Part shown: positions 1,087-46,013 of the stretch, one piece after another
Position numbering within the stretch: the stretch's first letter is position 1
Layout of the letters: each line of letters opens with the position of its first letter
Origin: Candidatus Magasanikiibacteriota bacterium
GTDB taxonomy: Bacteria; Patescibacteriota; Patescibacteriia; Magasanikbacterales; UBA922
DNA: 54,364 bases
Assembly: GCA_018652595.1 (NCBI GenBank)
Contig: JABIBU010000001.1
Location: forward strand, 1 to 54,364
Direction: 5' to 3'
The notes under the pieces: model-generated
The model's input: the letters and a program-made list of their open reading frames with translations, nothing else
Told to the model about the DNA's origin: nothing
The model's database searches: none
Program-made: the position numbers and the translations under genes

Positions 1087-2589
1087 TTATTTTTTCTTGA
1101 TAAAATGGCATCCAATACTTTCTTTTCTGTCTAGTGCTGCTTGGGTAATGAGCATTGCATTTATACACAAGCTTTTTAATTCAATAATTTCCTTACCGAT
1201 ATCTTTTTTATATACCTCCTCTATCTGAGTATTATATTTGTTCAGATTGTCCAGAGTTTGTTTTAGGTTTTTTTGATTTCTGATGATACCTACGTTTTTC
1301 CACATTAATTTTTGTATTTGGTTTTTTATATTTAAAATTTGCCTTGTGTTTGGCGAGCACACCCCAGTATTTCGTGACTTTTCATTCTCAATAGGGGATT
1401 TCTTATTCTTCTTTACATACTCTTTTGCGGATTCAATAGCTTTGGAACTAAAAACCATACATTCTAGTAGGGAATTAGAAGCTAAACGATTGGCACCATG
1501 AACCCCAGTATGGGCTACTTCTCCAAAGGCAAAAAGTCCAGGAATATTTGTTTCACCTTTTAAATTGGTGTGTACACCTCCACAGACAAAGTGAGCGGCT
1601 GGGGAAATTGGAATTAGGTCGCGATCTATTTTTATACCATGCCACCATAGGTTTTCAAAAAGATATGGAAAACGTTTTTTTATAAAACTGCTACCTTTGT
1701 GTCTGATATCCAAAAATACTTTTCCATTTTTTAGTTCTTCAAAAATAGCTCGAGAAACAATATCACGAGGAGCCAAATCAGCAAGCTTGTGATATTTTGA
1801 CATGAATTTTTCTCCTTTATCATTTACCAAAAAACCACCCTCACCACGAACAGTTTCCGATATTAGTAAAGCCGGTTTATTTTTTTTATCCAATGCTGTC
1901 GGGTGAAATTGAATAAATTCCATACCTCTAATTTCTGCACCAGCCTCGTGTGCCATGGCGACCCCGTCTCCTGTGGCAATTTTTGGGTTTGAATTGCGCA
2001 AATATACCTGTCCTGCTCCACCAGTGGCTAAGATTGTGGCTTTTGCAGAAAAATTTAATATTTTATTTTGTTCAGTATCTAAAACTAGTGTTCCTATACA
2101 TTTTTCGTTCTTTATTAATAGCTTATAAGCCAAGTGTGATTCAAAAATATTTATATTTTTGTTGTGCCTTACTTGGTGGATCAGCGCTCGTTCTATTTCT
2201 TTTCCAGTAGTGTCGTGAGAGTGGGCGATTCTTTTTGCGCTATGGCCCCCTTCTTTGCTTAGGCAAAGCTTGTCTTGTTTTTTGCTAAAGCCAACACCTA
2301 GATCGATTAGGCGCTTTATCTCTTTTGGGGCTTGTTTTATCATTAGTTCCACTGCTTTTTTGTTATTCAAATTGCAACCTGCCTTTAGTGTGTCCTCAAT
2401 GTGTTTATCAAAGCTGTCATACTTATCAAGTACAGCTGCGATACCACCCTGGGCATAGTTGGAATTACTTTCCATTAATTCTTTTTTGGTGACAATAGCG
2501 ACGGTTCCATATTTACTAGCTTGCAAAGCAAAATTAAGCCCAGCGATACCGGAGCCTATTACGAGGAAGTCATAATTAAATTCGTTCAT
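1087..2589 (-). CDS. nadB: L-aspartate oxidase
   Basis: GSGIAGL FAD motif, SNYAQGGIAA, EGGHS, QFHPT, LAPRDIVSRAI, HGANRLASNSLLE; lies in a nad operon. Confidence 0.96.
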   Translation of the reverse strand: MNEFNYDFLVIGSGIAGLNFALQASKYGTVAIVTKKELMESNSNYAQGGIAAVLDKYDSFDKHIEDTLKAGCNLNNKKAVELMIKQAPKEIKRLIDLGVGFSKKQDKLCLSKEGGHSAKRIAHSHDTTGKEIERALIHQVRHNKNINIFESHLAYKLLIKNEKCIGTLVLDTEQNKILNFSAKATILATGGAGQVYLRNSNPKIATGDGVAMAHEAGAEIRGMEFIQFHPTALDKKNKPALLISETVRGEGGFLVNDKGEKFMSKYHKLADLAPRDIVSRAIFEELKNGKVFLDIRHKGSSFIKKRFPYLFENLWWHGIKIDRDLIPISPAAHFVCGGVHTNLKGETNIPGLFAFGEVAHTGVHGANRLASNSLLECMVFSSKAIESAKEYVKKNKKSPIENEKSRNTGVCSPNTRQILNIKNQIQKLMWKNVGIIRNQKNLKQTLDNLNKYNTQIEEVYKKDIGKEIIELKSLCINAMLITQAALDRKESIGCHFIKKK

Positions 2590-2680
2590 ATCCGTCTAAT
2601 CAGTTTGATTCGTGTATCTATTTGGTAGATTGTTTAATAGATACACGGATTCAACAGATATAACGGATTAGAACTAATTT
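2590..2680. repeat. Intergenic imperfect palindrome (ATCCGT...GTGTATCTA / TAGATACAC...ACGGAT), related to 53061-53172
   Basis: Inverted arms are visible, and the same blocks recur in rearranged order at about 53061-53172. Confidence 0.7.
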
Positions 2681-3544
2681 TTATAAAATATTTAAAGAAA
2701 TGTCCAAAGACTTAACTGAATGCGTCAAACTACCCAAAGAAATAATATCAACACCAGTCTTTTGGTATTCACGAATATTTTTTTCTGTTATTCCACCAGA
2801 TGCTTCTATAATGATGTCCGGATTTGTTTTTTTGATCTGCTTTATTATTTTTTTGATCTTTTCTGGTCTCATATTGTCTAGCATTATTGCACCAGGATTT
2901 AGTTTGGCGAATTCAAAAACCTGTTTTTCTGTCTTACACTCTATTTCGTAGAAAGAAGTTATGGGTTTTAGGTTATGGGTTTTAGTATTGGCGATGTGAT
3001 TGTCTTTTATCAAGATCCAGTCGTAGAGTCCTAGTCTGTGTGTTCCACCACCACCGAGTGCCACAGCTTTTTTGTCTAAGAGCCCCCATTGTGTTTTGCG
3101 AGTAGAGCAGAGGAGGGGGTTGTTTTTAGTTATGAGTTTATTAGTCTGTGTTGCAATTCCAGACATTCGTTGAAGAATATTTAAGATAGTTCGTTCTAGT
3201 TTTAATATGTCTTTGATTTTTCCTGATAGCTTAATTATTTTTTCATTCTTTTTAATTTTCTGCCCATCTTTTTTATAGGTTTTAGGTTTTAGGTTGTAGG
3301 TATTTAGGATGCTTTCAACTTCTTCTAATCCAGCCAAAATACAGTTTTCTTTGACGGTGATGATTGCTGTAACTTTTGGATTGGATTTTATAATGGTGTC
3401 TGTTGTGATATCACCCTTGGTATCTAAATCTTCTTGTAGCATAAAATCTACCAACCATTTTACTTGGGTGTTATATTTTTTATTTTTGAGAGACAATTTT
3501 TCTTTTTGATTGAAATATTTTTTTATGGTTTGATTTTTGGTCAT
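2681..3544 (-). CDS. nadC: Quinolinate phosphoribosyltransferase (carboxylating nicotinate-nucleotide diphosphorylase)
   Basis: EDL..GDITT, ERTILN.LQRMSGIAT, STRKT, HRLGLYD.ILIKDNH, IMLDN, EASGGIT, GSLTHS. Confidence 0.96.
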   Translation of the reverse strand: MTKNQTIKKYFNQKEKLSLKNKKYNTQVKWLVDFMLQEDLDTKGDITTDTIIKSNPKVTAIITVKENCILAGLEEVESILNTYNLKPKTYKKDGQKIKKNEKIIKLSGKIKDILKLERTILNILQRMSGIATQTNKLITKNNPLLCSTRKTQWGLLDKKAVALGGGGTHRLGLYDWILIKDNHIANTKTHNLKPITSFYEIECKTEKQVFEFAKLNPGAIMLDNMRPEKIKKIIKQIKKTNPDIIIEASGGITEKNIREYQKTGVDIISLGSLTHSVKSLDISLNIL

Positions 3545-3545
3545 A

Positions 3546-4826
3546 TTAGTTTTTTATCATTTTGTCTAGTGCTTTTTTTGCTTTTATTTTAATATCTTCG
3601 CCTACTTCAATAACATGCTTTTCTTGCTCTAGAGATTCTAATACATTTTCTAGTGTATTTTTTTTCATTTGTATGCAAACACTGCCGACTGAGTAGAATT
3701 TTTTATTCGGAACTTCGATTTGTAGTCTTTCTATCATTCCCATTTCCGTGGCAATAATAAATTCTTGGGCATCACTTTCTTTTGCATAGGTAATCATTCC
3801 AGATGTTGAGGTCACGTGGTCAGCTTGCTCAATTATTTCCATTGGACACTCTGGGTGAACTACTACTTTTGCATCTGGGTGAAGTTCTTTTCCTTTTTTT
3901 AATTTTTCAATTAAAATTTTTGAGTGAACATAACAAAATCCATCCCAAGGAATTATTTGTTTTTCAGGTAATTTTGATTGGACATAGTTTGCTAGATTTT
4001 TATCAGGAAGAAAAATTATTTGTTTTGCATCTAGATTTTTTACTATTTCCACAGCATTGGCAGAAGTGCAACAGACATCACAGTGAGCTTTTGTTTCGGC
4101 TGTAGTATTTACATAGCAAACAGTTTTTGCTTCTGGATATTTGGCCTGCATCTGTTTCAGTTCTTCTGTATCAACCATACCTGCCATTGGGCACCTAGCT
4201 TCGTAAGTTGGGAGCAAGACTGTTTTGTCTGGGTTTAGTATTTTTGCAGTTTCTGCCATAAAGTCGACCCCACAAAATAGGATGATTTTTGCATCTGTTT
4301 CTACAGCACGCTTTGCTAGTTCTAGTGAATCACCAATAAAGTCAGCAATTTGATAAATTTCTGGGCGTTGGTAGTTGTGTACCAAAATAACAGCCTGCTT
4401 TTCTTTTTTTAAATTATTAATTTTATCTACTAGTTTTTTCATATTTCTTATTTTGGTGCCAGAAATGTTGATATTGATTTTTAATTTTTTTACTTGTATA
4501 TTTTTTTCTTCAAATAATTCTTCGACCCAATCATTGCCAGTGTAGACTACATCGAAATTGCCGGCTATGTTTTTTACATGATCTATCCAGTTGTTTTCAT
4601 CATGAATATCTGGAATTGCAATTATTTTGTAATTTGTGTTTGAGTTTTGTAGAGACTTTTCAATCATACTTTTTCTCTCTTTAAAACTATGTGGATTTTC
4701 ACTAGTATCACTATATTGAGAGCTTCCAATGCCAATAATAATCTCGTCTTCAGAGATTTGTTTTATTGCGTCTAAATGTCCCTCGTGAAAGGGTTGGAAT
4801 CTTCCTATAAATAATGCTGTTTTCAT
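3546..4826 (-). CDS. nadA: Fusion of NadM-type NMN/NaMN adenylyltransferase (aa 1-128) and quinolinate synthase NadA (aa 129-426)
   Basis: N-terminal GRFQPFHEGH (HxGH), GSSQ, ENP and SGTKIR motifs, then in frame LVHNYQ, GDSLEL, FCGVDFMAE, CPMA, YVNT, CTSANA, FLPDKNL, CYVH, HPEC and CIQMK (three Fe-S cysteines). Confidence 0.93.
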   Translation of the reverse strand: MKTALFIGRFQPFHEGHLDAIKQISEDEIIIGIGSSQYSDTSENPHSFKERKSMIEKSLQNSNTNYKIIAIPDIHDENNWIDHVKNIAGNFDVVYTGNDWVEELFEEKNIQVKKLKININISGTKIRNMKKLVDKINNLKKEKQAVILVHNYQRPEIYQIADFIGDSLELAKRAVETDAKIILFCGVDFMAETAKILNPDKTVLLPTYEARCPMAGMVDTEELKQMQAKYPEAKTVCYVNTTAETKAHCDVCCTSANAVEIVKNLDAKQIIFLPDKNLANYVQSKLPEKQIIPWDGFCYVHSKILIEKLKKGKELHPDAKVVVHPECPMEIIEQADHVTSTSGMITYAKESDAQEFIIATEMGMIERLQIEVPNKKFYSVGSVCIQMKKNTLENVLESLEQEKHVIEVGEDIKIKAKKALDKMIKN

Positions 4827-4845
4827 AACACTGATTACGTTGATT

Positions 4846-5610
4846 TTATTGGATTACACAGATTGGTAAAGGTTTTCTTTTGTGTTCTGAATTTTTTATT
4901 AAATTTTGCACTAGTTTCACATCGGTATCAACAAAATTATTTAAACTTTCATTATTTTCTCCACCCGAGGCGGATCTGTCTTGGTCGGAAATTGCCATCA
5001 AGATTTTATCTAATTTATCATAAGTTATTCCCAATTCATCTTCATCAGTCTGTCCTTCCCAAAGCCCAGCAGTTGGCGGGCGATCAATAATTTCTTGTGG
5101 AATACCAATATATTTTGCTAGTTCGCGTTCTTCTGTTTTGTATAGATCTCCAATTGGCAAAAGATCTGCTCCACCATCACCGTGTTTGGTAAAGTAGCCT
5201 GTCATTATTTCAGTTTTGTTTCCAGTGCCGAGTACTAGTCCATTTATTTCATTTGCCTTTGAATACAGCAGTGTCATTCGAATTCTGGTCTTGAGGTTGC
5301 CAAGGGTTTGTCTACCGAGTTCGAAATCTAGTGTTTCAGTGTAGCTTTTTAAAATAGGATCAAGCTGTAAGTTGTAAGTTGTAAGTCGTAAGTTTTTTGC
5401 TACCAATATTGCTAAGTCGAGATCTTCTGTGGTGTTGGTGGAGGAGGGGAGGATAAAGGTATGCACTTTGTCGGCCCCAAGGGCTTCTACGGCCAAATAT
5501 GCGACTACAGAGGAGTCTAGACCACCACTAAGACCCAAAACAACCGGTTTGTCGCCAGCCTGGATTTTGATAAAATTTATGAGTTTTTGCTTAATTTGCT
5601 CTAATTTCAT
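4846..5610 (-). CDS. nadE: NH3-dependent NAD+ synthetase
   Basis: GLSGGLDS, GNLKTRIRM, GTGNKTE, GYFTKHGDG, PIGDLYKT, PPTAGLWEGQTDEDELG, SEHKR. Confidence 0.96.
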   Translation of the reverse strand: MKLEQIKQKLINFIKIQAGDKPVVLGLSGGLDSSVVAYLAVEALGADKVHTFILPSSTNTTEDLDLAILVAKNLRLTTYNLQLDPILKSYTETLDFELGRQTLGNLKTRIRMTLLYSKANEINGLVLGTGNKTEIMTGYFTKHGDGGADLLPIGDLYKTEERELAKYIGIPQEIIDRPPTAGLWEGQTDEDELGITYDKLDKILMAISDQDRSASGGENNESLNNFVDTDVKLVQNLIKNSEHKRKPLPICVIQ

Positions 5611-5733
5611 ATATAAGTCTTATTCTAACAAAAAAATGGCTTTTTGACCATTTTTTGAAGATTACTTTTATTAGTCAAAATGATCCATTATCTAGATAAT
5701 GGTACTATATAATGTTACAGAAGTCAAAAAGTA

Positions 5734-5765
5734 AAACAACCTGCAAAATTGGCAGGTTGTTTTTT
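5734..5765. terminator. Rho-independent terminator
   Basis: aaaacaacctgc-aaaattg-gcaggttgtttttt hairpin with A/T tails, downstream of the minus-strand gene 5794-6798. Confidence 0.8.
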
Positions 5766-5793
5766 AATAAATATTTTTTTAGTCTACTTCTAA

Positions 5794-6798
5794 TTAGTTA
5801 CATCCAGTTATTATTCCATTGACAACTACTGTGGTAGAAGCTGCTCCACAAGTACCAGTCCAACCAGCGTTTGCACCAACAAAAATACCACTATCAAATC
5901 TTACTACGCCATCAACCTCTAGCTGGTCTACAATATATAAACTGGAACTAGTTAAACTTAGCCCAGGAACAGCAAGTTCAGATGCCCCTATCTGCACACG
6001 ACCATCGCGAACTCCATTATTGTTAACACCAGCGTAAAGTTTTAAATCTGGTCCAGACCCATCTTCATCTGTATCTTTTAGTGCATAAATAGAAGCTGTA
6101 TAATCTTCGAATACAATATCTCCTCCTTCAGTAGATAGTGCCTTTCCAAAACCAGATGCCATCACTATTCCATTTGCAAGAGCAGATCCTCCCGGAGTGT
6201 TATAAACCAATTGGAGAGCTCTATATTCATGTGTCTGAGTATCATTATCATCTCCAGTAAAACTAATTGACAGGCCTCTGGTAGTATTCTCTTGGGTGTG
6301 ACCAGCAGTGGCACCTGTCATGTTAATTCTCATACCTGTGGTGTCTTGATCATCTGTTGCACTCTTTACCTCTAAGTGCACTATTTCTGAAGCGGAAGAA
6401 TTATTCGTTGTGGATGCATCAATATATACATAGTCAGTAGCTCCTAGAGTAGTTGTTACTTGGCCATTTGAAATAATTGTTCCCAAATAAGCTGTACCAG
6501 AAGCAAATACATTCCCCCAGGCAGATCCCGAAGCACCTAAATCGTAGGTATTATTGGCACTAGGTAAGATATTACTAGCTACATCAGCTGTGACAACCAT
6601 TTTATCAGTAGCTGCATTTCCAATGGTGGTGGTAGTACCATTGACTGTGAGATTGCCTGTTAAGGTGGAGTTTCCTGTGACTCCCAATGTTCCGCCAACA
6701 GATACATTGTTTGCTATTGTAGTAGCTGCAAAAACAACTACAGGGGCCATCAATAGGCCAATAGCGAGGGAAAGAAAAAACAGTGTTCTTTTTTTCAT
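5794..6798 (-). CDS. Secreted Thr/Gly/Asn-rich beta-strand protein (surface or fibre-like), function unknown
   Basis: Signal peptide ending VFA-A; TTIANNVSVGGTLGV repeats; ILPSANNTYDLGASGSAW and C-terminal VVNGIITGC resemble fibre/adhesin segments. Confidence 0.6.
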   Translation of the reverse strand: MKKRTLFFLSLAIGLLMAPVVVFAATTIANNVSVGGTLGVTGNSTLTGNLTVNGTTTTIGNAATDKMVVTADVASNILPSANNTYDLGASGSAWGNVFASGTAYLGTIISNGQVTTTLGATDYVYIDASTTNNSSASEIVHLEVKSATDDQDTTGMRINMTGATAGHTQENTTRGLSISFTGDDNDTQTHEYRALQLVYNTPGGSALANGIVMASGFGKALSTEGGDIVFEDYTASIYALKDTDEDGSGPDLKLYAGVNNNGVRDGRVQIGASELAVPGLSLTSSSLYIVDQLEVDGVVRFDSGIFVGANAGWTGTCGAASTTVVVNGIITGCN

Positions 6799-13174: not shown

Positions 13175-13768
13175 ATGCTTGAACAACTATTTGGTTCAAA
13201 GACCAGATTCAATTTATTAAAAGTATTGTTTCGTCAGGCCGACAATCCGTTTTATGTAAGGGAGTTGGCTAGGCTCATAGATACACAGATAAATGCTATT
13301 AGGCGTGAGCTTGAGCTTTTGCTAAAGCTCGGAATTGTAAAAGAGGAAGAAGTGGATACTAGTGAAAAAACTACCCAAGGAGCCAAGCTTCGCAAGTACT
13401 ATATTTTGGACAAAGAATCACTTCTATATCCTGAATTACAAGCCCTACTTCTAAAGGCAAAAATTTTGGGTGAAAAAGAATTTATAAAAGAGATCACCAA
13501 GAGAGCCGGGGACATTTCTTTGTTTTTGCTTACTGGCAAGTTTACTAGTCGCGAGGGAATGTCTAGCGACCTGCTTCTAGTTGGTAAGATAAAAGAACGA
13601 ACTCTTGCCAAGATTATATCTCAATATGAAAAAGATTTTGGGTTTGAGATAATGTACACCACTATGACTGACCAAGAGTTCAAGGACCGTCGTCATGTGA
13701 TGGATAAATTTCTGTATTCTCTATTTGAGGCGGATAATTTGAAGGTTATCAATAAATTAAATGTCTAA
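13175..13768 (+). CDS. Winged-helix regulator with a C-terminal nucleotidyltransferase-like domain
   Basis: LFGSKTR...FYVRELAR....INAIRREL wHTH; LTGKF...SDLLLVG. Confidence 0.7.
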   Translation: MLEQLFGSKTRFNLLKVLFRQADNPFYVRELARLIDTQINAIRRELELLLKLGIVKEEEVDTSEKTTQGAKLRKYYILDKESLLYPELQALLLKAKILGEKEFIKEITKRAGDISLFLLTGKFTSREGMSSDLLLVGKIKERTLAKIISQYEKDFGFEIMYTTMTDQEFKDRRHVMDKFLYSLFEADNLKVINKLNV

Positions 13769-14156
13769 TATGTATTTGCTTTTTGATCTATCATCCAGAG
13801 ATATTGTTCATCTGGCTTTGTTTGATTCAGGTTCTATTGAACACAAAAAGTACTCTGGAATGAATAGAGAGCTATTGAGTTCTGTAGATGATTTTTTGAA
13901 ATTGCAAAATATTAAAAAAGAAGATGTAGGAGGAATAATGGTAGTCGTGGGTGCTGGTAGTTTTACGAGTACTCGAATTGCTTGTGTTGTGGCCAATACT
14001 TTCGCCTATGTTTTACAGGTTCCACTTTTGGCTATTGGAGAAGATAAGATTGATAGTGCGCAAGACTTAATTCCAGAGCTTTTGAAACAGACTAAAGGAC
14101 AATATATTTCAGCGACCTATTCAGGTGAGCCGAATATTGGGAAGAAGAAAAAATAA
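13761..14156 (+). CDS. tsaB: TsaB (short form)
   Basis: LLFDLSS, VVVGAGSFTSTRIACVVANTFAY, YSGEPNI. Confidence 0.85.
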   Translation: MSNMYLLFDLSSRDIVHLALFDSGSIEHKKYSGMNRELLSSVDDFLKLQNIKKEDVGGIMVVVGAGSFTSTRIACVVANTFAYVLQVPLLAIGEDKIDSAQDLIPELLKQTKGQYISATYSGEPNIGKKKK

Positions 14157-14172
14157 TTTTAATTTTTAAGAT

Positions 14173-14925
14173 ATGCATAAAAAAGAAGGTGTAATTAGGC
14201 AACCTGATCTTTTTCTTGAAAATGATCCAGAACTAAAAAGAAAATCAGAGAAAGTAAATTTTCGGGTGAGTATTTTGGGTGGTAAATCTGGTGAGCAGGA
14301 TGCAGATGAACTTGGGTATGAGTTAACCAAAGATTTTTTTTCAATACAAACTGGAGGATATAATAGGGGGGCGATGAAAAGTGGTCTAGAGGGGGCTGAT
14401 AGGGCACTAAAGGAGATGAAGGAAGATGCCCAAACTAAAAGAATATTGGGTCATATATGCCCCACCCCAAAAGGTATAGGGATGGAGAGAATATCTCCCG
14501 ACGAGGTGTTTAAGGGTGAACATACCCATTCGGAACTTCTGGGTGGTGGTGTTATGGATCACTATTTAAGATTGGGTAAGTTAATAGAAGAATCTTCCGC
14601 AAATATTGTTCTTGCTGGTGGTACCGGTACCGAAGTGGAATTTTTAGCTGATTTTAGGTTTAATAAGCAAATGTATAAAAAACAGGTAGAAGGTTTCAGT
14701 CATAAGCCTTTGATTTTTGTTGGTGATCATCATGATTCTATATTAAAAGATAAATTTGGTTCAGAAATTAATAAAAGCGATTTTGTTTATAAGACAGATA
14801 CAGCCAAAGAGGCTGTTGAGTTAGTGAAAGTTCTTGAATTGTTAGAAAATACAGAAGAAGAATTGAAAGATGATGAGTTGGAAAGGTTAAAAGAATTTAA
14901 GAGAAGTCATTTACTAAGAATTTAA
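14173..14925 (+). CDS. LOG/SLOG family Rossmann-fold protein (putative nucleotide N-glycosidase)
   Basis: RVSILGG, TGGYNRGAM, R..KLIE.S...IVLAGGTGTEVE (PGGxGTxxE-like), KPLIFVG. Confidence 0.72.
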   Translation: MHKKEGVIRQPDLFLENDPELKRKSEKVNFRVSILGGKSGEQDADELGYELTKDFFSIQTGGYNRGAMKSGLEGADRALKEMKEDAQTKRILGHICPTPKGIGMERISPDEVFKGEHTHSELLGGGVMDHYLRLGKLIEESSANIVLAGGTGTEVEFLADFRFNKQMYKKQVEGFSHKPLIFVGDHHDSILKDKFGSEINKSDFVYKTDTAKEAVELVKVLELLENTEEELKDDELERLKEFKRSHLLRI

Positions 14926-14948
14926 AAAATATCTAATATTAAAAATAT

Positions 14949-16361
14949 ATGACCAACAAAACTATTAACAAAAAGAGGATGTTACATTTTTTGTTGCCAG
15001 AAGATCAGTCTCTTTTTGATTATGATTATATTTTTTCAGCCTCTGCATTATGGGCAGAATTGGATATGGAAAATGTTACAGCAACTTTCGATCTCACTGT
15101 TAGAGACTTACCCCGAAATAGAAACTTCTTAGTGTTTAATGGGTTAGAAGAAATGCTGACAGGCATCTTGTCTTGGAATTTCACAAAAGAAGACGTTAGT
15201 TTTTTATTAAAAAGAAAAATTATAACCAAAAAATTTGCAAAGTTGTTGAGTAATTTTAAATTTGATGGTGATGTCTGGGCTATGCCAGAAGGGAGTATCT
15301 TTTTTCAAGGTGAGTCAGTTTTGAGAATTACAGGTAAATTGTGGCAAATAAATTTATTTACTTTCTTTTTGATAAATTCTTTAACCTCAAATGTTGTCTT
15401 TTCTAGTAAGCTGGCCCGTTGTTTTTTGGCTGCTGGAGGTAAAACTTATGTGGCTACTTGTCCACCTGTCAGAGGTCATGCTCATGAGGCATCTCTAAAA
15501 TTTGGCAGATCAGCCTATCTGTTTGGATCTGCTTCAGGCATGGTACCTGCGTTTGCCAGAAAGTTTGATATTCCATACGAAAGCAAGGCCAGGGGTTTCC
15601 ATGCTTTTATAAAATCATTTCCATATGAGCTTACAGCAATGAGGGAGTTGGCCAGAGTTTTCCCTGATGCTTCTCTTATGGTAGATACTTATGGTTTTGA
15701 GAGTGGTGTTGATAATGCTATCAAGGTTGCTTTGGAACAAAAAAGTAATAATAAACCAGTATTTTCAGCTATTTTTATTGATAGCGGTAAAGATGTAGAA
15801 GAATTTTCTGATAGAGCCAAATATGCTCGTAAAAAGATGGATAGAGCCGGATTAAAGAGTATTCAAATTACAGTAGCAGGCAACTTCGATGAATATAAGA
15901 TTAAAAAATTGGTCGATCTCAAGGCACCAGTTGATAAAGTCATATTAGGCACGGAAGCAATAACTCCCGCCGATGATCCTAAGCTTGAGACAGTTTTAAA
16001 AATGTCTCAATTTGTTAAGGAAGGAAAAATAACTAATACTGCCAAGCTGTCAAAAGGTAAATCTAGTTATCCTGGTATAAAGCAAGTTTTTAGAAAATAT
16101 AATAAAAATGGTCAAATGGTAGAAGACACCATAGGTTTGCATAACGAAAAATTGGGAGGGGCTTTATTAAAGCAATATATCAAGAGGGGTAAATTGAGTA
16201 GAAAATTACCAAGTATAGATGAAATTAAAAAATATCAAGAAAAAGAATTCAAAACTTTAAGTCCAAAATTAAAGAAAATTGATAAAAGTGCTGGTTATAT
16301 TGTGAAAAATAGTAAAAAATTAGAAAAATTGATGTTGGAAGTTAGTAAAAAACATTTGTAG
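14949..16361 (+). CDS. Divergent nicotinate phosphoribosyltransferase-like (type II PRTase) protein
   Basis: ATFDL.VR.LP, GLEE, AMPEG, LMVDTY, IDSG, DEYKI, KLSKGKSSYPGIKQVFR are NAPRT-like, but several substrate motifs are altered. Confidence 0.8.
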   Translation: MTNKTINKKRMLHFLLPEDQSLFDYDYIFSASALWAELDMENVTATFDLTVRDLPRNRNFLVFNGLEEMLTGILSWNFTKEDVSFLLKRKIITKKFAKLLSNFKFDGDVWAMPEGSIFFQGESVLRITGKLWQINLFTFFLINSLTSNVVFSSKLARCFLAAGGKTYVATCPPVRGHAHEASLKFGRSAYLFGSASGMVPAFARKFDIPYESKARGFHAFIKSFPYELTAMRELARVFPDASLMVDTYGFESGVDNAIKVALEQKSNNKPVFSAIFIDSGKDVEEFSDRAKYARKKMDRAGLKSIQITVAGNFDEYKIKKLVDLKAPVDKVILGTEAITPADDPKLETVLKMSQFVKEGKITNTAKLSKGKSSYPGIKQVFRKYNKNGQMVEDTIGLHNEKLGGALLKQYIKRGKLSRKLPSIDEIKKYQEKEFKTLSPKLKKIDKSAGYIVKNSKKLEKLMLEVSKKHL

Positions 16362-16365
16362 TCAT

Positions 16366-17022
16366 ATGGGTAAACTAATAATAATCTATGGTGTAAATGG
16401 TGTGGGCAAAGATGCTATCGCCCTAAGTTTAAGTCGAGAATACACGAATAGTGTTGTGGTTAGTGATCAGAGAATTTTGATGTATCATTTGGGAATTATA
16501 GATAGTTATGACAATAGTCTTAAAATAGACAAAGAAAAGTATAAGAAGCTTGAAGATACCTCAAATGAAAAATTTATAGATATTTATCAAAATAAATTTA
16601 TTCAAACACTGTCTGAAATTAAAAGTAATTATGATATTGTATTTTTGATATCCCATTTGGTTATTAGTTTGCATACGGATAAAGAAAGTCCATTATATAT
16701 GGATACAGAATCTATAAATATCAATTTAGAAAATCTTTTGTCAGGAATCGCAGATGGTGTTTTTTATATAAAAAGTGATTGTAAAGATATTTTAAAGAGA
16801 AGAGAGGTGGACGCAAAAAAATATGATAGACAAAGACCGCTTAGGTTGGAAGATATAAAACAACACCAATACTTGAATGATAAAAAATGGGATGAGATTT
16901 CAAAATATGTATCAGAAAACAAGAAAATTACTATTTTAAATGACGAAGGTAAATTGGACAAAGCTATTTCTACGGCGAGAGATTTTATAGATAATATATT
17001 GTCTGATGTGAGTAAATTATGA
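16366..17022 (+). CDS. P-loop nucleoside-monophosphate kinase-like protein (archaeal adenylate kinase-like)
   Basis: IIIYGVNGVGKD Walker A, SH after strand 3, ILKRR..D...R.R lid, ILND.G. Confidence 0.7.
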   Translation: MGKLIIIYGVNGVGKDAIALSLSREYTNSVVVSDQRILMYHLGIIDSYDNSLKIDKEKYKKLEDTSNEKFIDIYQNKFIQTLSEIKSNYDIVFLISHLVISLHTDKESPLYMDTESININLENLLSGIADGVFYIKSDCKDILKRREVDAKKYDRQRPLRLEDIKQHQYLNDKKWDEISKYVSENKKITILNDEGKLDKAISTARDFIDNILSDVSKL

Positions 17023-17291
17023 AACACCTAAATCTAAAAATCCACGGTAAAGTTCAAGGAGTTTTTTTTCGTGAAAAAACAAAACAGCTTGCACAAGAAT
17101 TGGGTTTAAATGGTTATGTGAAGAATACTTCAGATAATTGTGTGGAGGTCGTAGTTGAAGGTGATGAATTAGCTTTGAAAAAGCTGCTTGATTGGTGTAA
17201 AATAGGAACAGAGTATGCCGAGGTCGGTGAAGTTGAAGAAAAATGGAGCGATGAAGTGGGGGAGTTTGAAGAATTTAAAATAGTTTATTAA
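17019..17291 (+). CDS. acyP: Acylphosphatase
   Basis: GKVQGVFFR, GYVKN, VEVVVEG. Confidence 0.95.
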   Translation: MKHLNLKIHGKVQGVFFREKTKQLAQELGLNGYVKNTSDNCVEVVVEGDELALKKLLDWCKIGTEYAEVGEVEEKWSDEVGEFEEFKIVY

Positions 17292-24990: not shown

Positions 24991-25019
24991 TTTCAGATAA
25001 TAGTTTTGTAGACAACAGA

Positions 25020-25050
25020 CAACAATCCCACGAAAGTGGGGTTGTTTTTT
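25020..25050 (+). terminator. Terminator after frr
   Basis: aacaatcccac-gaaa-gtggggttgtttttt. Confidence 0.8.
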
Positions 25051-25153
25051 ATCCCCTCTTGAGAGGGGTGCCCGAAGGGTGGGGTGTGCTGTCCAACGTT
25101 CGCCAACACACCTAGGCACTCGTTCCTCGTGTTCACCCCTCTCAAGAGGGGAA
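25051..25153. repeat. Non-autonomous palindromic element with CCCCTCTTGAGAGGGG / CCCCTCTCAAGAGGGG ends
   Basis: The two 16-bp ends are reverse complements of each other; architecture resembles the flanks of the DUF559 gene at 40811-41318. Confidence 0.75.
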
Positions 25154-25270
25154 CTAATATCAGATCTCTTGATTTTTTTGTAATAGTATGTAATAATTGT
25201 TGTAGTTTATTTTTGATCAACTTTGATCAGCATAACTGCCCCTATGCTAGGTGGGGCGAGGAGAGGTTAG

Positions 25271-25996
25271 ATGCGTGAGGAGAAAGGATTTAAGTTTACT
25301 GGTCTGTTAGCGAGTCGACCAAAGCAGTTTGTTTTGTGCGCCTTGGCGCTTTTAGTGGCATCTTCTTTGATTGGAGTGGCCATATGGCATAAGATTACCT
25401 ATGGCTCTATCCTTAATAAGGAAGACAGTGCGAAACCGAAACAATCTCAAGTCGAAATCATTGTAGAGGTAGACGAAGAGATGACAGAAGCTTTTCTTCA
25501 GAAGATCCGAAGAGAGGAGCGGGAAAACGGCCGAAGGGTTCAAGAACTTCTCGGATGTGGATTTGACCAGTGCGAAGAGTACTGCCTTTTGGATTTTCCC
25601 CACGAGCTCGTCAATGAGTTTGAGGTGAATGAGAAGGAAATACTCCAAAAGTTCTGGGAATCAGCTGGGGACATGGATGTCTGGGAGGATGACGGATTTT
25701 ACTATCGCCGCAGGGTGATGGCGGTGATGAAGATCATGCGTGAGAAGGACGCGGAGATTGATCGGCTTCGTCCTGCAGGTGATCCTGTCATAGAGGAGAG
25801 GAAGGCGTTTTTCAAGGAGCAATGTAGTCTCTGCCACATAGTGGATGATCGAACACTGGATCGATGGTCTCTTTTAGAGGAGGTAGAGAGTAGTTCTCGT
25901 GGTGGATTGGATGCTTTACCAGAAGGCGAGGAGGCTCCTCCCGGACATAAGTACCCGCCTCGGATTCGTAAAGAGGTGGGTACCGGCCCGCTGTAG
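25271..25996 (+). CDS. Orphan membrane-anchored protein containing a CxxCH motif
   Basis: N-terminal TM, acidic composition, FFKEQCSLCH; SD-like GAGGAGAGG upstream; visibly more GC-rich than its neighbours. Confidence 0.6.
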   Translation: MREEKGFKFTGLLASRPKQFVLCALALLVASSLIGVAIWHKITYGSILNKEDSAKPKQSQVEIIVEVDEEMTEAFLQKIRREERENGRRVQELLGCGFDQCEEYCLLDFPHELVNEFEVNEKEILQKFWESAGDMDVWEDDGFYYRRRVMAVMKIMREKDAEIDRLRPAGDPVIEERKAFFKEQCSLCHIVDDRTLDRWSLLEEVESSSRGGLDALPEGEEAPPGHKYPPRIRKEVGTGPL

Positions 25997-26056
25997 CTGG
26001 ACCTGCAACAAAGGGGGGAAGTCTGGTCGGTGTTCTAGCCACTGACCAGACAACCC

Positions 26057-44300: not shown

Positions 44301-45320
44301 ACAAAAGGAACAGGGTGGGTTTATGGTACCAAGTGGATATCCCAGGTTTTGCGTAATACTGGTGGCACAGCTAATTTGAATAATGTTGAATTTGCGAATA
44401 ATTATATTGATGGAGTAAATCCAGATTACAATACAGTTGTTTGGGTCGAGGCACCTCTGGGCTATAGCGCTAGCACTACGATTGAAAATAGTATTTTGGA
44501 TGCAGGTTACACAGCTGTTAATTTTTATGGACAAAATAATGGACAGACAGTTTCGGGTGTCCTTGAGAATAATGTATTGAAAAACTTTACTGATCCAGAA
44601 GCAATTATAAAGGTTAGTAATAGTGAACCAAAGATTAATGGTAATTTTTTAGAAAATAACACAAGTGATTATATTGATATGGGTGGTTTTGTCTTGAGCA
44701 GTGACTTTACTTTGAAGCAAGATCAAAAATATTTATTTTCTAATATTGAAGTGCCCGTGGACAAGATATTAACAATTGAACCAGGGGTTGATGTTAAATT
44801 GAGTGGCTATATAAAAGTAGATGGTAGTCTACAAGCCAATGGCGAAGTAGGTAATCCAATCAATTTTATACCTAGAGATAATTATTGGAATATAATGTTG
44901 TTTAATAATTCTAGCTCTAGTTTGTCTAACGTAAATATAACAAGGGGTAATGGTGGTGGAGGACTGCGCGCCCCAAACAAGCGCGGTATGGTGACTGCTG
45001 AAAATTCAACTGTCAGTTTTGATAGTGTTAATTTTATGGATGCAGAACGACCATATAATATGCTTTATCTAGAAAATTCAGATATAAATATCAAAGATAG
45101 CATCATTTCATGGACAGACAACTACACCGGATCAAAAAATATCGATGGAATAATGTTTAAGAGTGGAAAACTACATTTAGATAGCGTGACTTTTAATAAT
45201 ATGAAGCGAGGAGTTGAGATTATGAGTGGGGGAGTAATAACTATGGATAATATGAATCTCGGCCACTTCCAAAACATAGCAGACCTAAACTGGTGGCCGG
45301 CGAGTGCTCTGAGCATGTAA
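41379..45320 (+). CDS. Large surface protein: Zn phospholipase C/P1-nuclease-like domain, linker, Ig/FN3, lamin-tail domain, beta-helix
   Basis: N-terminal TM; H...EDED...NHFYDP and LGHVLHLIADMSVPAHTRDDAH...E; VVNEIAWMG...EWLELYN...IDLTGW (lamin-tail domain); GTAEDPIIFTS repeats. Confidence 0.8.
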   Translation: MNKKRGNIFGISLGIIIVLFLGTITIRNSVFSYDTTVAHPNIVDLAAKVYNEDSFEKLTDQQITWMRQGAEDEDMPIRWMNHFYDPVYNVGFKSSYLTAKDWSGASEKQRDYSLGDKSWQRAISDYQDGNSEEAFQALGHVLHLIADMSVPAHTRDDAHPEGDSLEQFIKYNWDILYAGLQEIDMDLTYYSRLDYYFDNLANYSNNNFYSDDTIESDKYKNIIIDYYNEKINDNGNSIILAISDQDIYAHVQRGTLWKGDLEKSLKNQIVLADYTKHLLPKAVSHSAGVIKLFFKEVEKEHDFDLNKNKISFVGKMGNMLGWGVEKLAGLKQYFGGGKEVVRADENTVLSVMNPGSAKAMPDKVITKEIDVVEPIYYGPPKPTIVYTALEPEIEVKEPEALVNIPVPPSFPKIDIETEIVVDAEVIDEVEENEVVEEKKVYHYGGGGGYSAPVVEPDTEPVLDPITPTSTSTSTPSDDGEGSSDGGEEDEEVVTSTLPTIQITSHQASSYTNVTSTIITGTSSESMVRVFINTSTVEVGTSSTWQVEVDLVEGENSFEIFGEDSVELRSVTSTIEIILDTTAPEVLSVETAQTEFATPTIRVSWIVEDVGVGISYYDLEYNTDSGDWLGLATSTTSTTYDFIGENLHEYNFRIKAYDSFDYVSEWVTSSSTLTDWPKSVVVNEIAWMGTSVAKTSDEWLELYNNTDETIDLTGWRILVSGDEINWDNTDHVIPAKGYYLLERSDDDTVFGVDADGIFTLSGGLGNSGENVVLMNSVSSTIDQVDCSSGWFAGVTNNGYRSMERLNPSDPGSISGNWQTSESVAPKGRPYGGDVIYGSPGYQNTAYWFLKGDLSFHYADLIVDNKLTLTKASSPYLIDYSTEILGGLKVEVEPGVVLMGIDRSSYINIKGDLILNGTAEDPIIFTSALDTNYVQQNLTTLTDETPQAGDWSRIEIEEGGSLQAESVKFFYGGQTFTKGTGWVYGTKWISQVLRNTGGTANLNNVEFANNYIDGVNPDYNTVVWVEAPLGYSASTTIENSILDAGYTAVNFYGQNNGQTVSGVLENNVLKNFTDPEAIIKVSNSEPKINGNFLENNTSDYIDMGGFVLSSDFTLKQDQKYLFSNIEVPVDKILTIEPGVDVKLSGYIKVDGSLQANGEVGNPINFIPRDNYWNIMLFNNSSSSLSNVNITRGNGGGGLRAPNKRGMVTAENSTVSFDSVNFMDAERPYNMLYLENSDINIKDSIISWTDNYTGSKNIDGIMFKSGKLHLDSVTFNNMKRGVEIMSGGVITMDNMNLGHFQNIADLNWWPASALSM

Positions 45321-45347
45321 CATATAACATGACCTTCCTAAAGGAGG

Positions 45348-45454
45348 GTTTTTTTGTACTTGACATTTTGGGGAAAATGGTATAGTATGTTTATTATGTT
45401 CTATTTACCTGAGTCCATGATGGGCGAAGGTTTTTCACTGAAGGGGGAAGTTCG
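45348..45454 (+). promoter_or_regulatory. Cassette 1 promoter, leader hairpin and RBS
   Basis: TTGACA-N17-TATAGT, acct-gagtccatgatgggcga-aggt hairpin, AAGGGGG; homologous to 45909-46013. Confidence 0.75.
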
Positions 45455-45769
45455 ATGACAAAGAGTGCACATGTGTTTAGGCTCCGGGAAGGAGTCGAAG
45501 TGGAAATTCCCAGGTGGATGTTCTTTACGGAGGCGAAGGAGCCTGATGCCGAGGGTGGTATCACCCCGATGATCACGCGTATCAAGGGTGTCGGCGGGGG
45601 CAAATTCACCTTCCGATCCATGTCGGAACTCGATCCGAGTGACGATGACCTGACTGGGATCGTGGGGTTCATCCCGCGTTTCGCCCCAGGTGACATTCTC
45701 GTGCTCAACCGTGTGGAGGTTGGTGGAGAGAAGGGGATCCGCAACTTGCGCTTCCTGCCCAAGACCTAG
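45455..45769 (+). CDS. Orphan protein (cassette 1 cargo)
   Basis: Promoter and RBS upstream; GC-rich relative to the window; ends ACC TAG within the shared trailer. Confidence 0.7.
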   Translation: MTKSAHVFRLREGVEVEIPRWMFFTEAKEPDAEGGITPMITRIKGVGGGKFTFRSMSELDPSDDDLTGIVGFIPRFAPGDILVLNRVEVGGEKGIRNLRFLPKT

Positions 45770-45915
45770 AGACGCTCGTCTCTCAAGCTCGTCCGGGCTA
45801 GGTTTCATCCGTTCATTAAGTAGTAGGAGGATAGGAGGTGGTCTTTGAGCCCAAGGCTCACTGTGTCCACCTCCTGAAATTGATTTTTTTATTCCACCTG
45901 AGAGGTGGTTTTTTT
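45763..45915 (+). repeat. Structured 3' trailer copy 1 (98 bp identical to copy 2) plus terminator
   Basis: 45801-45898 equals 46561-46658; aggaggtgg/ccacctcct stem with inner tgagcc/ggctca hairpin. Confidence 0.92.
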
Positions 45916-46013
45916 GTACTTGACTTTTTGAAAAAAATAGTGTAGTATATTTGCTATGCTATGTTTACCTAAGCCTATGGTGGGTGAAGGTTTTTTTCAA
46001 GGGGGTTTCTTTT
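45909..46013 (+). promoter_or_regulatory. Cassette 2 promoter, leader hairpin and RBS
   Basis: TTGACT-N17-TGTAGT, acct-aagcctatggtgggtga-aggt hairpin, AAGGGGG. Confidence 0.7.

What the first reader, a model, noticed from the sequence alone, without database searches (positions are those of the whole stretch)
14173..17022. LOG/SLOG + divergent NAPRT-like + NMP-kinase module: candidate new nucleotide or base-exchange pathway
Seen: three tightly spaced, very AT-rich genes lie between tsaB and acyP. The PRTase keeps the NAPRT scaffold and the His of the GTxAHS motif (ARGFHAF). Substrate motifs are replaced: TDLY by DYDY, FGxRR by CPPVRG, TSN by SGMV, and VRxDSG by IFIDSG. Established: LOG/SLOG proteins cleave bases from nucleotides or act in NAD-linked defence (for example the SLOG domain of ThsA), type II PRTases join a base to PRPP, and phage NARP pathways use NAMPT to rebuild NAD. 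Inference: a release, re-attach and phosphorylate pathway for a non-nicotinate base, or an NAD-related conflict module. The genome already has de novo NAD synthesis.
Basis: partly seen in the sequence, partly recalled or inferred. Interest (0 to 1): 0.75.

Follow-up and report, generated by a model that had tools for sequence, protein, structure and literature searches.

The report
Remodelled NAPRT-like enzyme with LOG partner
A tiny symbiont-type bacterium carries an inserted three-gene block whose central enzyme looks like the NAD-salvage enzyme NAPRT but has lost the residues that hold nicotinate. It belongs to a conserved, undescribed branch of that enzyme family and probably handles a different base.

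Summary
Three co-directional genes at 14173-17022 encode a LOG-family hydrolase, an NAPRT-like type II phosphoribosyltransferase (PRT) and an archaeal-adenylate-kinase-like P-loop kinase.

They define a clade rather than decay. Of 112 full-length homologues, 93 lack the Arg equivalent to human R318. All 93 also lack the R171 equivalent, and 87 of them have Ala in place of S214. H213, K396, D-S-G and the NAPRT-specific C-terminal residues stay invariant.

The block replaces other DNA in a variable slot between tsaB and acyP. The PRT gene is rare and patchy: 1 of 60 relatives, and 6-7 of 400 phylum genomes.

The three-gene unit is not conserved. The kinase was found only with the closest relatives. 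A LOG-like gene sits directly upstream of the PRT in 3 of 14 loci. A close LOG-like relative elsewhere sits with an unrelated kinase and two type I PRTases.

Most carriers show no NadE and no recognisable NMNAT. No defence or phage signal was found.

Best reading (about 0.45): a nucleotide/base salvage pair built around a non-canonical, probably non-nicotinate PRTase, with a lineage-specific kinase. An ordinary NAPRT remains possible (about 0.3).

The parts
14173..14925 (+). LOG-family (SLOG cluster 4-like) protein, 250 aa. Predicted nucleotide N-glycosidase (phosphoribohydrolase).
   Evidence: Pfam Lysine_decarbox E=1e-3, 19.7 bits, below the cut-off of 27. Relatives in L002, L119 and L146 pass the LDcluster4 cut-off. 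The ESM Atlas structure search gives TM 0.62-0.67 to LOG clusters. For the AF2 model (pLDDT 73), the top Foldseek hits are type I/II LOG and PpnN. AGGTGTEVE at 148-156 fits the PGGXGTXXE motif, and R133 and E156 are invariant in A4. The family holds 81 representative clusters at E<=1e-10.
14949..16361 (+). Divergent NAPRT-like type II phosphoribosyltransferase, 470 aa.
   Evidence: NAPRTase_N and NAPRTase_C match, but the catalytic model PF04095 does not. All NCBIfam NAPRT equivalogs score below cut-off. 2f7f matches at E=5e-37. The clade forms one bipartition with support 0.98.
16366..17022 (+). P-loop NMP-kinase-like protein, 218 aa, closest in fold to archaeal-type adenylate kinase.
   Evidence: AAA_18 E=1e-3. 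PRK04040 archaeal adenylate kinase scores 31 bits against a cut-off of 155. For the AF2 model (pLDDT 83), Foldseek's top hits are archaeal adenylate kinases 6pk5, 1kht and 7owh (E about 1e-8, TM 0.5-0.6, 17-21% identity). Walker A GVNGVGKD and the basic residues R145, R146, R155 and R157 are invariant in 4 sequences. The genome also has a bacterial Adk elsewhere.
14147..17013 (.). Insertion or replacement segment relative to the same-genus genome G001.
   Evidence: DNA homology with G001 stops at 14146 and resumes at 17014. G001 holds 1.07 kb of other genes there: a PEP-utilizers mobile-domain ORF and an LPD3-domain ORF. In G004 and G005 tsaB abuts the GT2 gene directly.
13761..14156 (+). tsaB (short form). 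Conserved left flank, not part of the module.
17019..17291 (+). acyP (acylphosphatase). Right flank, present in G001 without the module.
1087..5610 (-). Context: de novo NAD cluster of nadB, nadC, a NadM-type NMNAT fused to NadA, and nadE. It lies 8.6 kb upstream and could use NaMN or NMN made by the PRT.
   Evidence: NadA was found in only 4 of 60 relatives, and the same-genus genomes match only the NMNAT part.

Best explanation
This is an accessory three-gene block inserted in a variable slot.

Its core is a member of a conserved Patescibacteria/DPANN branch of the NAPRT family. That branch keeps the ATP-coupled phosphoribosyl-transfer machinery: the phosphorylatable His, the pyrophosphate Lys, D-S-G, and the NAPRT N- and C-terminal domains. 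It has replaced the residues that hold the nicotinate carboxylate and the PRPP 5-phosphate.

I infer that it still makes a ribotide from PRPP. I also infer that its base is not recognised as nicotinate is. A neutral pyridine such as nicotinamide is the leading candidate in this genome, which has a NadM-type NMNAT and no PncA.

The upstream LOG-family enzyme is predicted to be catalytically competent. It would cleave a nucleoside monophosphate into base plus ribose-5-phosphate. That supplies either the base or, through Prs, the PRPP. The pair would therefore act as a base-exchange or salvage couple in an organism that lives on scavenged nucleotides.

The adenylate-kinase-like gene is a lineage-specific addition. 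It would either phosphorylate the product or rebalance adenylates used by the ATP-driven PRT.

Shown: folds, motifs, clade structure, insertion, distribution and gene neighbourhoods. Inferred: all substrates and the direction of flux.
For: 1. Active site. PMC4442680 (passages read) names Y21, L170, R171, H213, S214, R318 and K396 as the NAPRT active site. The window protein has Y27, P173, V174, H218, A219, F276 and K351.

2. These changes are fixed across a clade. 112 of the 120 listed homologues were aligned; 8 were dropped for length outside 420-500 aa.
- 93 lack Arg at position 276: V33, F28, T15, M5, I3, S3, P3, N2, A1.
- In those 93, position 174 is never Arg, whereas all 19 canonical sequences have Arg.
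- Position 219 is Ala in 87.
- Position 222 is Lys in 76, where canonical sequences have Met.
- Position 336 is Glu or Asp in 92.
- H218, R175, K351, D278 and T335 are kept in 92-93 of 93.
- The split is one branch with support 0.98.

3. The protein scores below every curated NAPRT cut-off and has no PF04095 match.

4. All 13 other loci fetched carry the non-Arg type.

5. The LOG-PRT pair. A LOG-like gene lies directly upstream in the window, L002 (PRT 56% identical) and L119 (42%). That is 3 of 14 loci. In 401 phylum genomes the LOG-like profile scored strongly only in G000 and G095, and both copies lie next to the PRT.

6. The closest relative of the L119 LOG-like protein (36% identity, E=9e-45) sits in L146 beside an APH-family kinase and two type I PRTases. 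One subfamily member is fused to NUDIX, and a NUDIX gene follows the PRT in L111.

7. In G052 the genome's only Prs lies one gene upstream of the PRT.

8. LOG catalytic features are present.

9. NAD-pathway partners are mostly missing in carriers. NadE was found in 1 of 7 divergent-type genomes of the phylum sample, against 38 of 401 overall. No NMNAT-like protein was recognised in 8 of 8 carriers searched.

10. No PncA was found in G000.
Against: - No substrate was tested. Everything about the base is inferred from lost contacts.
- The protein is still far closer to NAPRT than to anything else. The human R318A mutant keeps about half its activity when ATP is present (PMC4442680), so losing that Arg need not abolish nicotinate use. 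The new conserved Lys222 could take over its role.
- This genome has NadM and NadE and could use NaMN.
- 11 of 14 PRT loci lack a significant LOG-like neighbour. The upstream ORFs in L097 and L120 are not significantly LOG-like (E 0.098 and 0.42).
- The kinase is not a conserved partner.
- No LOG-PRT fusion appeared among the 10 long hits compared with the PRT, out of the best 150 LOG-like hits.
- Gene adjacency in these genomes is weak evidence, because long co-directional arrays are the rule.
- The small nucleotidyltransferase present in 6 of 8 carriers could be an unrecognised NMNAT. It is common, though: 94 of 241 phylum genomes, a tally that includes one unpublished genome, G212.
Confidence: 0.45

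Rival explanations
1. This is an ordinary nicotinate phosphoribosyltransferase of a lineage-specific sequence type. It salvages external nicotinate into NaMN for the NadM/NadE genes 8.6 kb upstream. The LOG-like and kinase genes are unrelated neighbours.
For: - The best matches everywhere are NAPRT: 2f7f at E=5e-37 and NCBIfam NAPRT models at 258-310 bits.
- H218, K351, D-S-G, Y27 and the NAPRT-specific N and C domains are kept.
- Human R318A keeps about 50% activity with ATP (PMC4442680).
- The genome can convert NaMN to NAD.
- Source databases name these proteins NAPRT.
- The kinase, and in most loci the LOG-like gene, are not conserved neighbours.
Against: - Both arginines that contact the position-3 substituent and PRPP are lost. 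So are S214 and the G-x-G of the 5-phosphate loop. These losses hold across 93 sequences, while 19 neighbouring canonical sequences keep all of them.
- The protein is below all curated cut-offs and has no PF04095 match.
- 6 of 7 divergent-type carriers in the phylum sample have no NadE match, and 8 of 8 carriers searched have no recognisable NMNAT, so NaMN would have no outlet.
- Genomes with 2-3 paralogues (G170, G211, G333) are hard to explain by a single housekeeping step.
- The canonical NAPRT of G292 sits next to NadE, whereas none of the divergent ones does.
Confidence: 0.3
2. This is an NAD- or nucleotide-centred conflict module. It would act either in defence or in repair of NAD after depletion, in the manner of phage NARP pathways. 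The LOG/SLOG protein would sense or degrade a signal, and the PRTase would rebuild or divert a pyridine nucleotide.
For: - The block sits in a variable slot. In a same-genus genome that slot holds an LPD3-domain ORF, a domain typical of mobile elements.
- Distribution is patchy and paralogues have expanded.
- NARP1 pairs a Prs-like enzyme with a type II PRTase (abstracts of PMC12774641 and PMC13586617). G052 has Prs near the PRT.
- The conserved upstream HTH gene matches the PADLOC candidate PDC-M05A at 72.6 bits.
Against: - None of the three proteins matches PADLOC or PHROGs.
- The pattern-based viral scans found no kinase or LOG-like relative. They found only 3 PRT loci, all of the canonical Arg type.
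- No TIR, SIR2, nuclease or other effector lies beside any of the 14 loci.
- The LOG-like protein carries the catalytic LOG motif. It does not resemble the sensor-type YpsA clade that PMC9503650 links to cADPR sensing (passages).
- The Prs in G052 is that genome's only Prs and so is housekeeping.
- Namat keeps a Nampt-like catalytic core (abstract), whereas this clade has lost core arginines.
Confidence: 0.1
3. The PRT is a catalytically dead or decaying NAPRT copy (a pseudoenzyme), and the block has no joint function.
For: Several residues called essential in NAPRT are missing. The gene is dispensable in 59 of 60 relatives.
Against: The frame is intact at 470 aa. Ninety-three homologues down to about 40% identity keep the same alternative residues. 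H218, K351, R175, D246, Y248, D278 and G280 are invariant, along with several C-terminal residues. Such catalytic and PRPP-site residues would drift in a dead enzyme.
Confidence: 0.05

Closest known systems
Nicotinate phosphoribosyltransferase (PncB/NAPRT; E. faecalis 2F7F, human 4YUB)
   Same: Same three-part architecture, with NAPRTase_N, a barrel and NAPRTase_C. The His that is phosphorylated in NAPRT (H218) is conserved. Also conserved are the pyrophosphate Lys (K351), D246-T-Y248, D278-S-G280, T335 and the K-Q-V-x-R C-terminal block.
   Different: Human R171 becomes V, R318 becomes F, S214 becomes A and L170 becomes P. The G-x-G before T335 is lost. New clade-conserved residues are K222, E336, N135 and T138. 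There is no PF04095 match, and all NCBIfam cut-offs are missed. Carriers mostly lack NadE and NMNAT.
NAMPT/NadV and phage Namat (NARP1/NARP2)
   Same: They belong to the same type II PRTase superfamily. A neutral pyridine base (nicotinamide) is a plausible substrate here too. In G052 a Prs gene lies one gene upstream of the PRT, which recalls the NARP1 pairing of Adps with Namat.
   Different: By sequence the protein is NAPRT-like, not NAMPT-like. NAMPT keeps the two arginines (R196, R311) that this clade lacks (PMC4442680). No viral homologue of the divergent type was found and there is no PHROGs match. The Namat selectivity clamp was not tested.
LOG / PpnN nucleotide 5'-monophosphate phosphoribohydrolases
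   Same: Same Rossmann-like LOG fold. A GGxGTxxE motif with the catalytic Glu is present, along with a conserved Arg upstream.
   Different: This is a separate subfamily of about 250 aa with an N-terminal extension. The motif starts with A instead of P. The window protein is below the Pfam cut-off. The genome has a canonical tandem LOG elsewhere. The substrate is unknown.
Archaeal-type adenylate kinase (AdkA; 6PK5, 1KHT, 7OWH)
   Same: It is the best structural match. It has a P-loop and a basic LID-like region.
   Different: Identity is only 17-21%, and the NCBIfam score is 31 bits against a cut-off of 155. The genome already has a bacterial Adk. Only 3 sequence relatives were found. Specificity is unknown.
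Thoeris ThsA SLOG sensor
   Same: Same SLOG superfamily.
   Different: ThsA-type SLOG belongs to the sensor (YpsA-like) side of the superfamily, whereas this protein has LOG-clade catalytic residues (PMC9503650 passages). There is no SIR2 or TIR partner and no PADLOC match.

Membership tests
NAPRT (EC 6.3.4.21) | Match to the curated family models above their cut-offs | tested here: not met
   TIGR01513 scores 281.2 against 297.4, NF009131 291.3 against 330, and NF006696 309.6 against 503. There is no PF04095 match at E<=0.01. NAPRTase_N and NAPRTase_C do pass.
NAPRT (EC 6.3.4.21) | Seven active-site residues (human Y21, L170, R171, H213, S214, R318, K396; PMC4442680) | tested here: not met
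   The window protein has Y27, H218 and K351 (3 of 7 kept). The other four are P173, V174, A219 and F276.
NAPRT (EC 6.3.4.21) | Nicotinate + PRPP -> NaMN, stimulated by ATP | not testable with these tools
   This needs an enzyme assay.
NAPRT (EC 6.3.4.21) | Genomic company of NaMN-using enzymes (NMNAT and NadE) | tested here: inconclusive
   Both are present in G000. NadE was found in 1 of 7 divergent-type carriers of the phylum sample. No recognisable NMNAT was found in 8 of 8 carriers searched.
LOG family (cytokinin/nucleotide phosphoribohydrolase) | PGGXGTXXE motif with catalytic Glu, plus catalytic Arg (PMC4979012) | tested here: met
   AGGTGTEVE at 148-156 (P replaced by A). E156 and R133 are invariant in A4. 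A G-x(1,2)-[GA]-T-x-x-E pattern occurs in 57 of the 60 best subfamily hits. The Arg equivalence comes from motif position only, not from a structural superposition.
LOG family (cytokinin/nucleotide phosphoribohydrolase) | Pfam PF03641/PF18306 above cut-off | tested here: inconclusive
   The window protein scores 19.7 bits against 27. Its relatives pass: L002 at 39.4, L119 at 29.2 and 29.6, and L146 at 31.2.
LOG family (cytokinin/nucleotide phosphoribohydrolase) | LOG fold | tested here: met
   Foldseek's top hits are 5wq3, 5zbj and PpnN 6gfl (E 2e-5 to 1e-4; TM 0.45 on a model of pLDDT 73). The Atlas gives TM 0.62-0.67.
Archaeal-type adenylate kinase | Family model above cut-off | tested here: not met
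   NF003122 scores 31 bits against 155.
Archaeal-type adenylate kinase | NMP-kinase fold with P-loop and LID arginines | tested here: met
   The AMP-site residues were not examined.
Anti-phage defence or phage NAD-reconstitution systems | Match to a known defence or phage family, or presence in viral contigs | tested here: not met
   PADLOC gives 0 of 3 proteins and PHROGs 0 of 3. The viral scans found 3 PRT loci, all canonical type, and no kinase or LOG-like relative. The scans are pattern-limited.

The most novel reading that the evidence does not exclude
The Patescibacteria/DPANN 'NAPRT' clade may be a fourth functional class of type II phosphoribosyltransferase. It would ribosylate a base other than nicotinate, nicotinamide or quinolinate, or use a donor other than PRPP, given the remodelled 5-phosphate loop with a conserved acidic residue. 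With its LOG-family partner it would form a base-exchange route by which genome-reduced episymbionts rebuild a nucleotide or cofactor from scavenged nucleotides.
Probability: 0.25. Interest if true: 0.8.

Novelty: new variant of a known kind. Interest (0 to 1): 0.55.

Why it matters
Databases label these proteins as nicotinate phosphoribosyltransferase, and metabolic reconstructions of Patescibacteria and DPANN would count them as NAD salvage. If the clade has a different substrate, those reconstructions are wrong for this step. A new reaction in the small type II PRTase superfamily would then be open to direct assay, because the protein is soluble-looking, 470 aa long and defined by clear diagnostic residues. 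The recurrent LOG-PRTase pairing, seen with both type II and type I PRTases, suggests how ultra-small symbionts recycle ribose-phosphate and bases.

Tried and rejected
- **Trio as a conserved unit: rejected.** The kinase profile A3 gave only weak P-loop matches (E>=1e-4) in 11 of 400 phylum genomes, and none of those genomes carries the PRT. No Walker-A protein other than ABC ATPases lies in the 13 other PRT loci.
- **Kinase with the nearest PRT relatives: suggested, not shown.** Kinase homologues P0125 and P0126 list the same longest-contig lengths (45254 and 3930) as PRT homologues P0002 and P0003.
- **Upstream ORFs of L097 (G052) and L120 (G329) as LOG-like: rejected.** hhalign gave E 0.098 and 0.42.
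- **LOG-PRT fusion proteins: none found.** I scanned 19 long hits among the best 150 LOG-like hits against Pfam and compared 10 of them with the PRT by BLAST and a PRT HMM.
- **Genome-contig scan.** It returned 80 loci. I examined only the 2 above 40% identity (L002, L003). The other 78 (<=37%) were not examined.
- **Metagenome scan with the LOG-like profile.** It gave 4 loci. One duplicates L119, one is cut at the contig end, one is an ordinary short LOG alone, and one is L146.
- **Mobile-element signatures around the insertion.** Only short AT-rich chance repeats were found, with no tRNA or Rfam match nearby.
- **Promoter and terminator scan.** No more sites than in shuffles.
- **Small cytidylyltransferase-like protein as a PRT-specific NMNAT partner: rejected as specific.** It occurs in 94 of 241 phylum genomes, G000 included.
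- **Expression.** No RNA holder was listed for the stretch.
- **Earlier findings of this scan.** Nothing for this place or sequence.
- **Literature.** Searches found no paper describing this clade or a LOG-NAPRT pairing. Subscription journals and supplements were not covered.


Full report
**1. What is there**

The window belongs to a 965-kb, 27-contig genome that is 95% complete. Homologues from source databases carry Patescibacteria and related labels.

At 14173-17022 three + strand ORFs of 250, 470 and 218 aa follow tsaB and precede acyP. The gaps are 16, 23 and 4 nt, and the last ORF overlaps acyP by 4 nt.

GC is 0.357, 0.336 and 0.282 against a window mean of 0.367. Only the third gene is unusually AT-rich.

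The genes lie in a long co-directional array. Consensus promoter and terminator sites are no more frequent than in shuffles. Tight spacing therefore says little on its own.

**2. The phosphoribosyltransferase (PRT)**

- Pfam finds NAPRTase_N (7e-20) and NAPRTase_C (2.9e-11) but not the catalytic model PF04095.
- Ten NCBIfam NAPRT models match, the best at 258-310 bits, and all are below their curated cut-offs.
- The nearest solved structure is E. faecalis NAPRT 2f7f (E=5e-37), followed by human 4yub.

Marletta et al. (PMC4442680; passages read) define the active site as E. faecalis Y17, T162, R163, H205, S206, R262 and K333. These equal human Y21, L170, R171, H213, S214, R318 and K396. In their docking model:
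- R318 binds the nicotinate carboxylate and the PRPP ribose. They call it 'the major player in catalysis'.
- R171 binds the PRPP phosphate and the position-3 substituent of the base.
- S214 and K396 bind the pyrophosphate.

Counting along the printed alignments and my own alignments, the window protein has Y27, P173, V174, H218, A219, F276 and K351. Three of the seven residues are kept.

**3. It is a clade, not decay**

The word-indexed search returned 211 homologues, of which the best 120 are listed. I aligned the 112 that are 420-500 aa long and dropped 8 for length.

At the R318 column 93 have no Arg (V33, F28, T15, M5, I3, S3, P3, N2, A1) and 19 have Arg. I defined the two groups by that column, so it is circular for that column only. 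The other columns co-vary:

| Position | Divergent (93) | Canonical (19) |
|---|---|---|
| 174 | V/T/M/I/L, or a gap in 7 | Arg in 19 |
| 219 | Ala in 87 | Ser in 18 |
| 222 | Lys in 76 | Met in 17 |
| 332 | never Gly | Gly in 19 |
| 334 | Gly in 18 | Gly in 19 |
| 336 | Glu or Asp in 92 | N/H/R/K |
| 135 | Asn in 86 | Gln in 19 |
| 138 | Thr in 75 | Glu in 19 |

Positions 27 (Tyr) and 173 are variable within the clade. The window's subgroup keeps Tyr, and most others have Gln.

H218, R175, K351 and D278 are kept in all 112 sequences, and T335 in 111. D246, Y248, G280 and several C-terminal residues (K366, K371, K378, Q379, R382) are invariant in the 32-sequence alignment A1 and at least 85% conserved in both groups of the 112.

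In a FastTree LG+gamma tree the 93/19 split is a single branch with support 0.98-0.99.

So the fold is under purifying selection, and so are the phospho-His, the pyrophosphate Lys and the ribose-binding D-S-G. The base pocket and the 5-phosphate loop are remodelled in a fixed way.

Source databases call these proteins nicotinate phosphoribosyltransferase. Three full-text searches found no paper on this clade.

**4. Distribution and the insertion**

- The PRT was found in 1 of 60 relatives (G052, same order). It was found in neither same-genus genome, both of which are 98-99% complete.
- In an even sample of 400 genomes of the phylum, 9 had a match at E<=1e-30.
- By motif, 6 are the divergent type (G095, G170, G211, G305, G329, G333). 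One (G160) has Gln at the Arg position. Two (G292, G404) are canonical.
- G170 and G211 have two copies each, and G333 has three.

Protein and DNA comparison with relatives shows a conserved backbone of HTH, tsaB and GT2:
- In G004 and G005, tsaB abuts GT2 directly.
- In same-genus G001, tsaB is followed by a 94-aa PEP-utilizers mobile-domain ORF, a 161-aa LPD3-domain ORF, and then acyP.
- Homology between G001 and the window stops at 14146 and resumes at 17014.

The three genes therefore occupy a variable slot. I found no flanking repeats, tRNA or Rfam element.

**5. The LOG-like protein**

- The Pfam match is weak for the window protein (19.7 bits against 27). Relatives pass the LDcluster4 or Lysine_decarbox cut-offs.
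- The ESM Atlas structure search and an AF2 model (pLDDT 73) both point to LOG and PpnN.
- Seo et al. (PMC4979012; passages) define the PGGXGTXXE motif and the catalytic Arg99 and Glu122. The window has AGGTGTEVE at 148-156, and R133 and E156 are invariant in the four-sequence alignment.
- An exhaustive profile search found 639 hits at E<=1e-3, 81 at E<=1e-10 and 31 at E<=1e-30. Most of the strongest are 240-300 aa long. 57 of the 60 best carry the motif pattern.
- The genome has a canonical tandem LOG elsewhere.

**6. The kinase**

- Matches are weak: AAA_18 and the archaeal adenylate-kinase model at 31 bits against 155.
- The Atlas structure search and an AF2 model (pLDDT 83) give archaeal adenylate kinases as best matches (E about 1e-8, TM 0.5-0.6, 17-21% identity).
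- The P-loop and several basic residues are invariant among the only four sequences known.
- A bacterial Adk is present elsewhere in the genome, so this is an extra kinase.

**7. Are the genes linked elsewhere?**

I examined 14 PRT loci: the window, L002 and L003 from genome contigs, and 11 loci from 7 genomes.

- A significant LOG-like gene lies directly upstream in three: the window, L002 (PRT 56% identical) and L119/G095 (42%).
- The upstream ORFs in L097/G052 and L120/G329 are not significantly LOG-like.
- With the LOG-like profile, only G000 and G095 of 401 phylum genomes scored strongly. G095 is in the profile. Both copies are next to the PRT. The other 86 matches are weak (E 1e-11 to 1e-3), which is what general LOG/SLOG relatives give.
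- In a metagenome scan, the closest relative of the G095 LOG-like protein (36% identity, E=9e-45) lies in L146, followed by an APH-family kinase and two type I PRTases. That is the same functional trio built from unrelated kinase and PRTase folds, but it is a single case.
- One subfamily member is fused to NUDIX, and a NUDIX gene follows the PRT in L111.
- In G052 the genome's only Prs lies one gene upstream of the PRT.

Against linkage:
- 11 of 14 loci have other neighbours, including aminotransferase, GIY-YIG, MurJ and PEP-utilizers proteins.
- No LOG-PRT fusion was found.
- The kinase has no real relative in the 400 phylum genomes, beside any other PRT locus, or in viral contigs. It seems to travel with the PRT only in the nearest relatives. 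That is inferred from matching contig lengths, not shown.

**8. NAD context**

- The window holds nadB, nadC, nadE and a fusion of a NadM-type NMNAT (PRK01153, 123 bits against 127) with NadA.
- NadA occurs in 4 of 60 relatives. The same-genus genomes match only the NMNAT part.
- No PncA was found in G000.
- Among the 7 non-Arg PRT genomes of the phylum sample, only G305 has a NadE match, against 38 of 401 overall. The canonical NAPRT of G292 sits beside NadE.
- In 8 carriers, PF01467 found only short generic nucleotidyltransferases in 6. Their best NCBIfam labels are RfaE, TagD or generic, not NMNAT. The same protein is common, in 94 of 241 genomes, G000 included. That tally includes the unpublished genome G212.

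Most carriers therefore show no route from NaMN or NMN to NAD. One carrier, G333, is only 76% complete, and absence here means 'not found with these queries'.

**9. Conflict reading**

- None of the three proteins matches PADLOC or PHROGs.
- The viral-contig scans are pattern-limited. They gave three PRT loci, all canonical type, and nothing for the other two proteins.
- No effector domain lies beside any locus.
- Aravind-group passages (PMC9503650) separate the catalytic LOG-like clade from the cADPR-sensing YpsA-like clade. This protein has the catalytic motif.

**10. Verdict**

The PRTase fails the membership tests for NAPRT while clearly descending from it. It represents a conserved, undescribed variant.

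The most likely role is a salvage or base-exchange step with a base not bound as nicotinate is, often coupled to a LOG-family hydrolase. The kinase is a local addition. An ordinary NAPRT function cannot be excluded without an assay.

All statements about substrates are inference.

Noticed in passing
window 3546-4826 (-): A single ORF fuses a NadM-type NMN adenylyltransferase (residues about 1-131) to quinolinate synthase NadA. Similar long frames occur in G030 and G012. The same-genus genomes match only the NMNAT part, with stop codons at the edges of the match.
   Followed up: partly
L092 (G001:C19) 5298-6077, and L112, L113: The slot that holds the module in this genome holds a 94-aa PEP-utilizers mobile (phospho-His swivel) domain ORF and an LPD3-domain ORF in G001. 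Proteins ending in the same swivel domain flank the divergent PRT in L112 (four copies) and L113 (one copy). A link to the PRT's own phospho-His chemistry is conceivable but untested.
   Followed up: partly
L146 897-4217 (metagenome contig): An operon-like row holds a LOG-like protein (36% identical to the one beside the G095 PRT), an APH-family kinase and two type I phosphoribosyltransferases. A LAGLIDADG endonuclease fragment precedes it.
   Followed up: partly
P0159 (398 aa), and L111 4079-4495: One LOG-like subfamily member is fused to a NUDIX hydrolase. A separate NUDIX gene directly follows the divergent PRT in G333 contig 129.
   Followed up: no
window 13175-13768 (+): The conserved HTH protein upstream of tsaB matches the PADLOC candidate-defence family PDC-M05A (72.6 bits). 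It is syntenic in G001, G004 and G005, so it is core rather than part of the insertion.
   Followed up: no
G170, G211, G333 (loci L113-L118): These roughly 1-Mb genomes carry two or three paralogues of the divergent PRT (45-55% identical to the window's) in different neighbourhoods: aminotransferase, GIY-YIG and IS200-like.
   Followed up: partly
G000:C1:90003-91049: Two canonical LOG domains (110 and 103 bits) lie in one 458-aa open frame elsewhere in the genome.
   Followed up: no
window 46736-50625 (+): A PKD + 7TM_transglut protein is followed by a fusion of a sugar-transfer-associated ATP-grasp domain with a MATCAP-like carboxypeptidase domain.
   Followed up: no
window 25001-26000 and 45001-47000: Local GC rises to 0.44-0.48 against about 0.36. 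The ORF at 25271-25996 has no Pfam match, and no rRNA or other Rfam family lies there.
   Followed up: no
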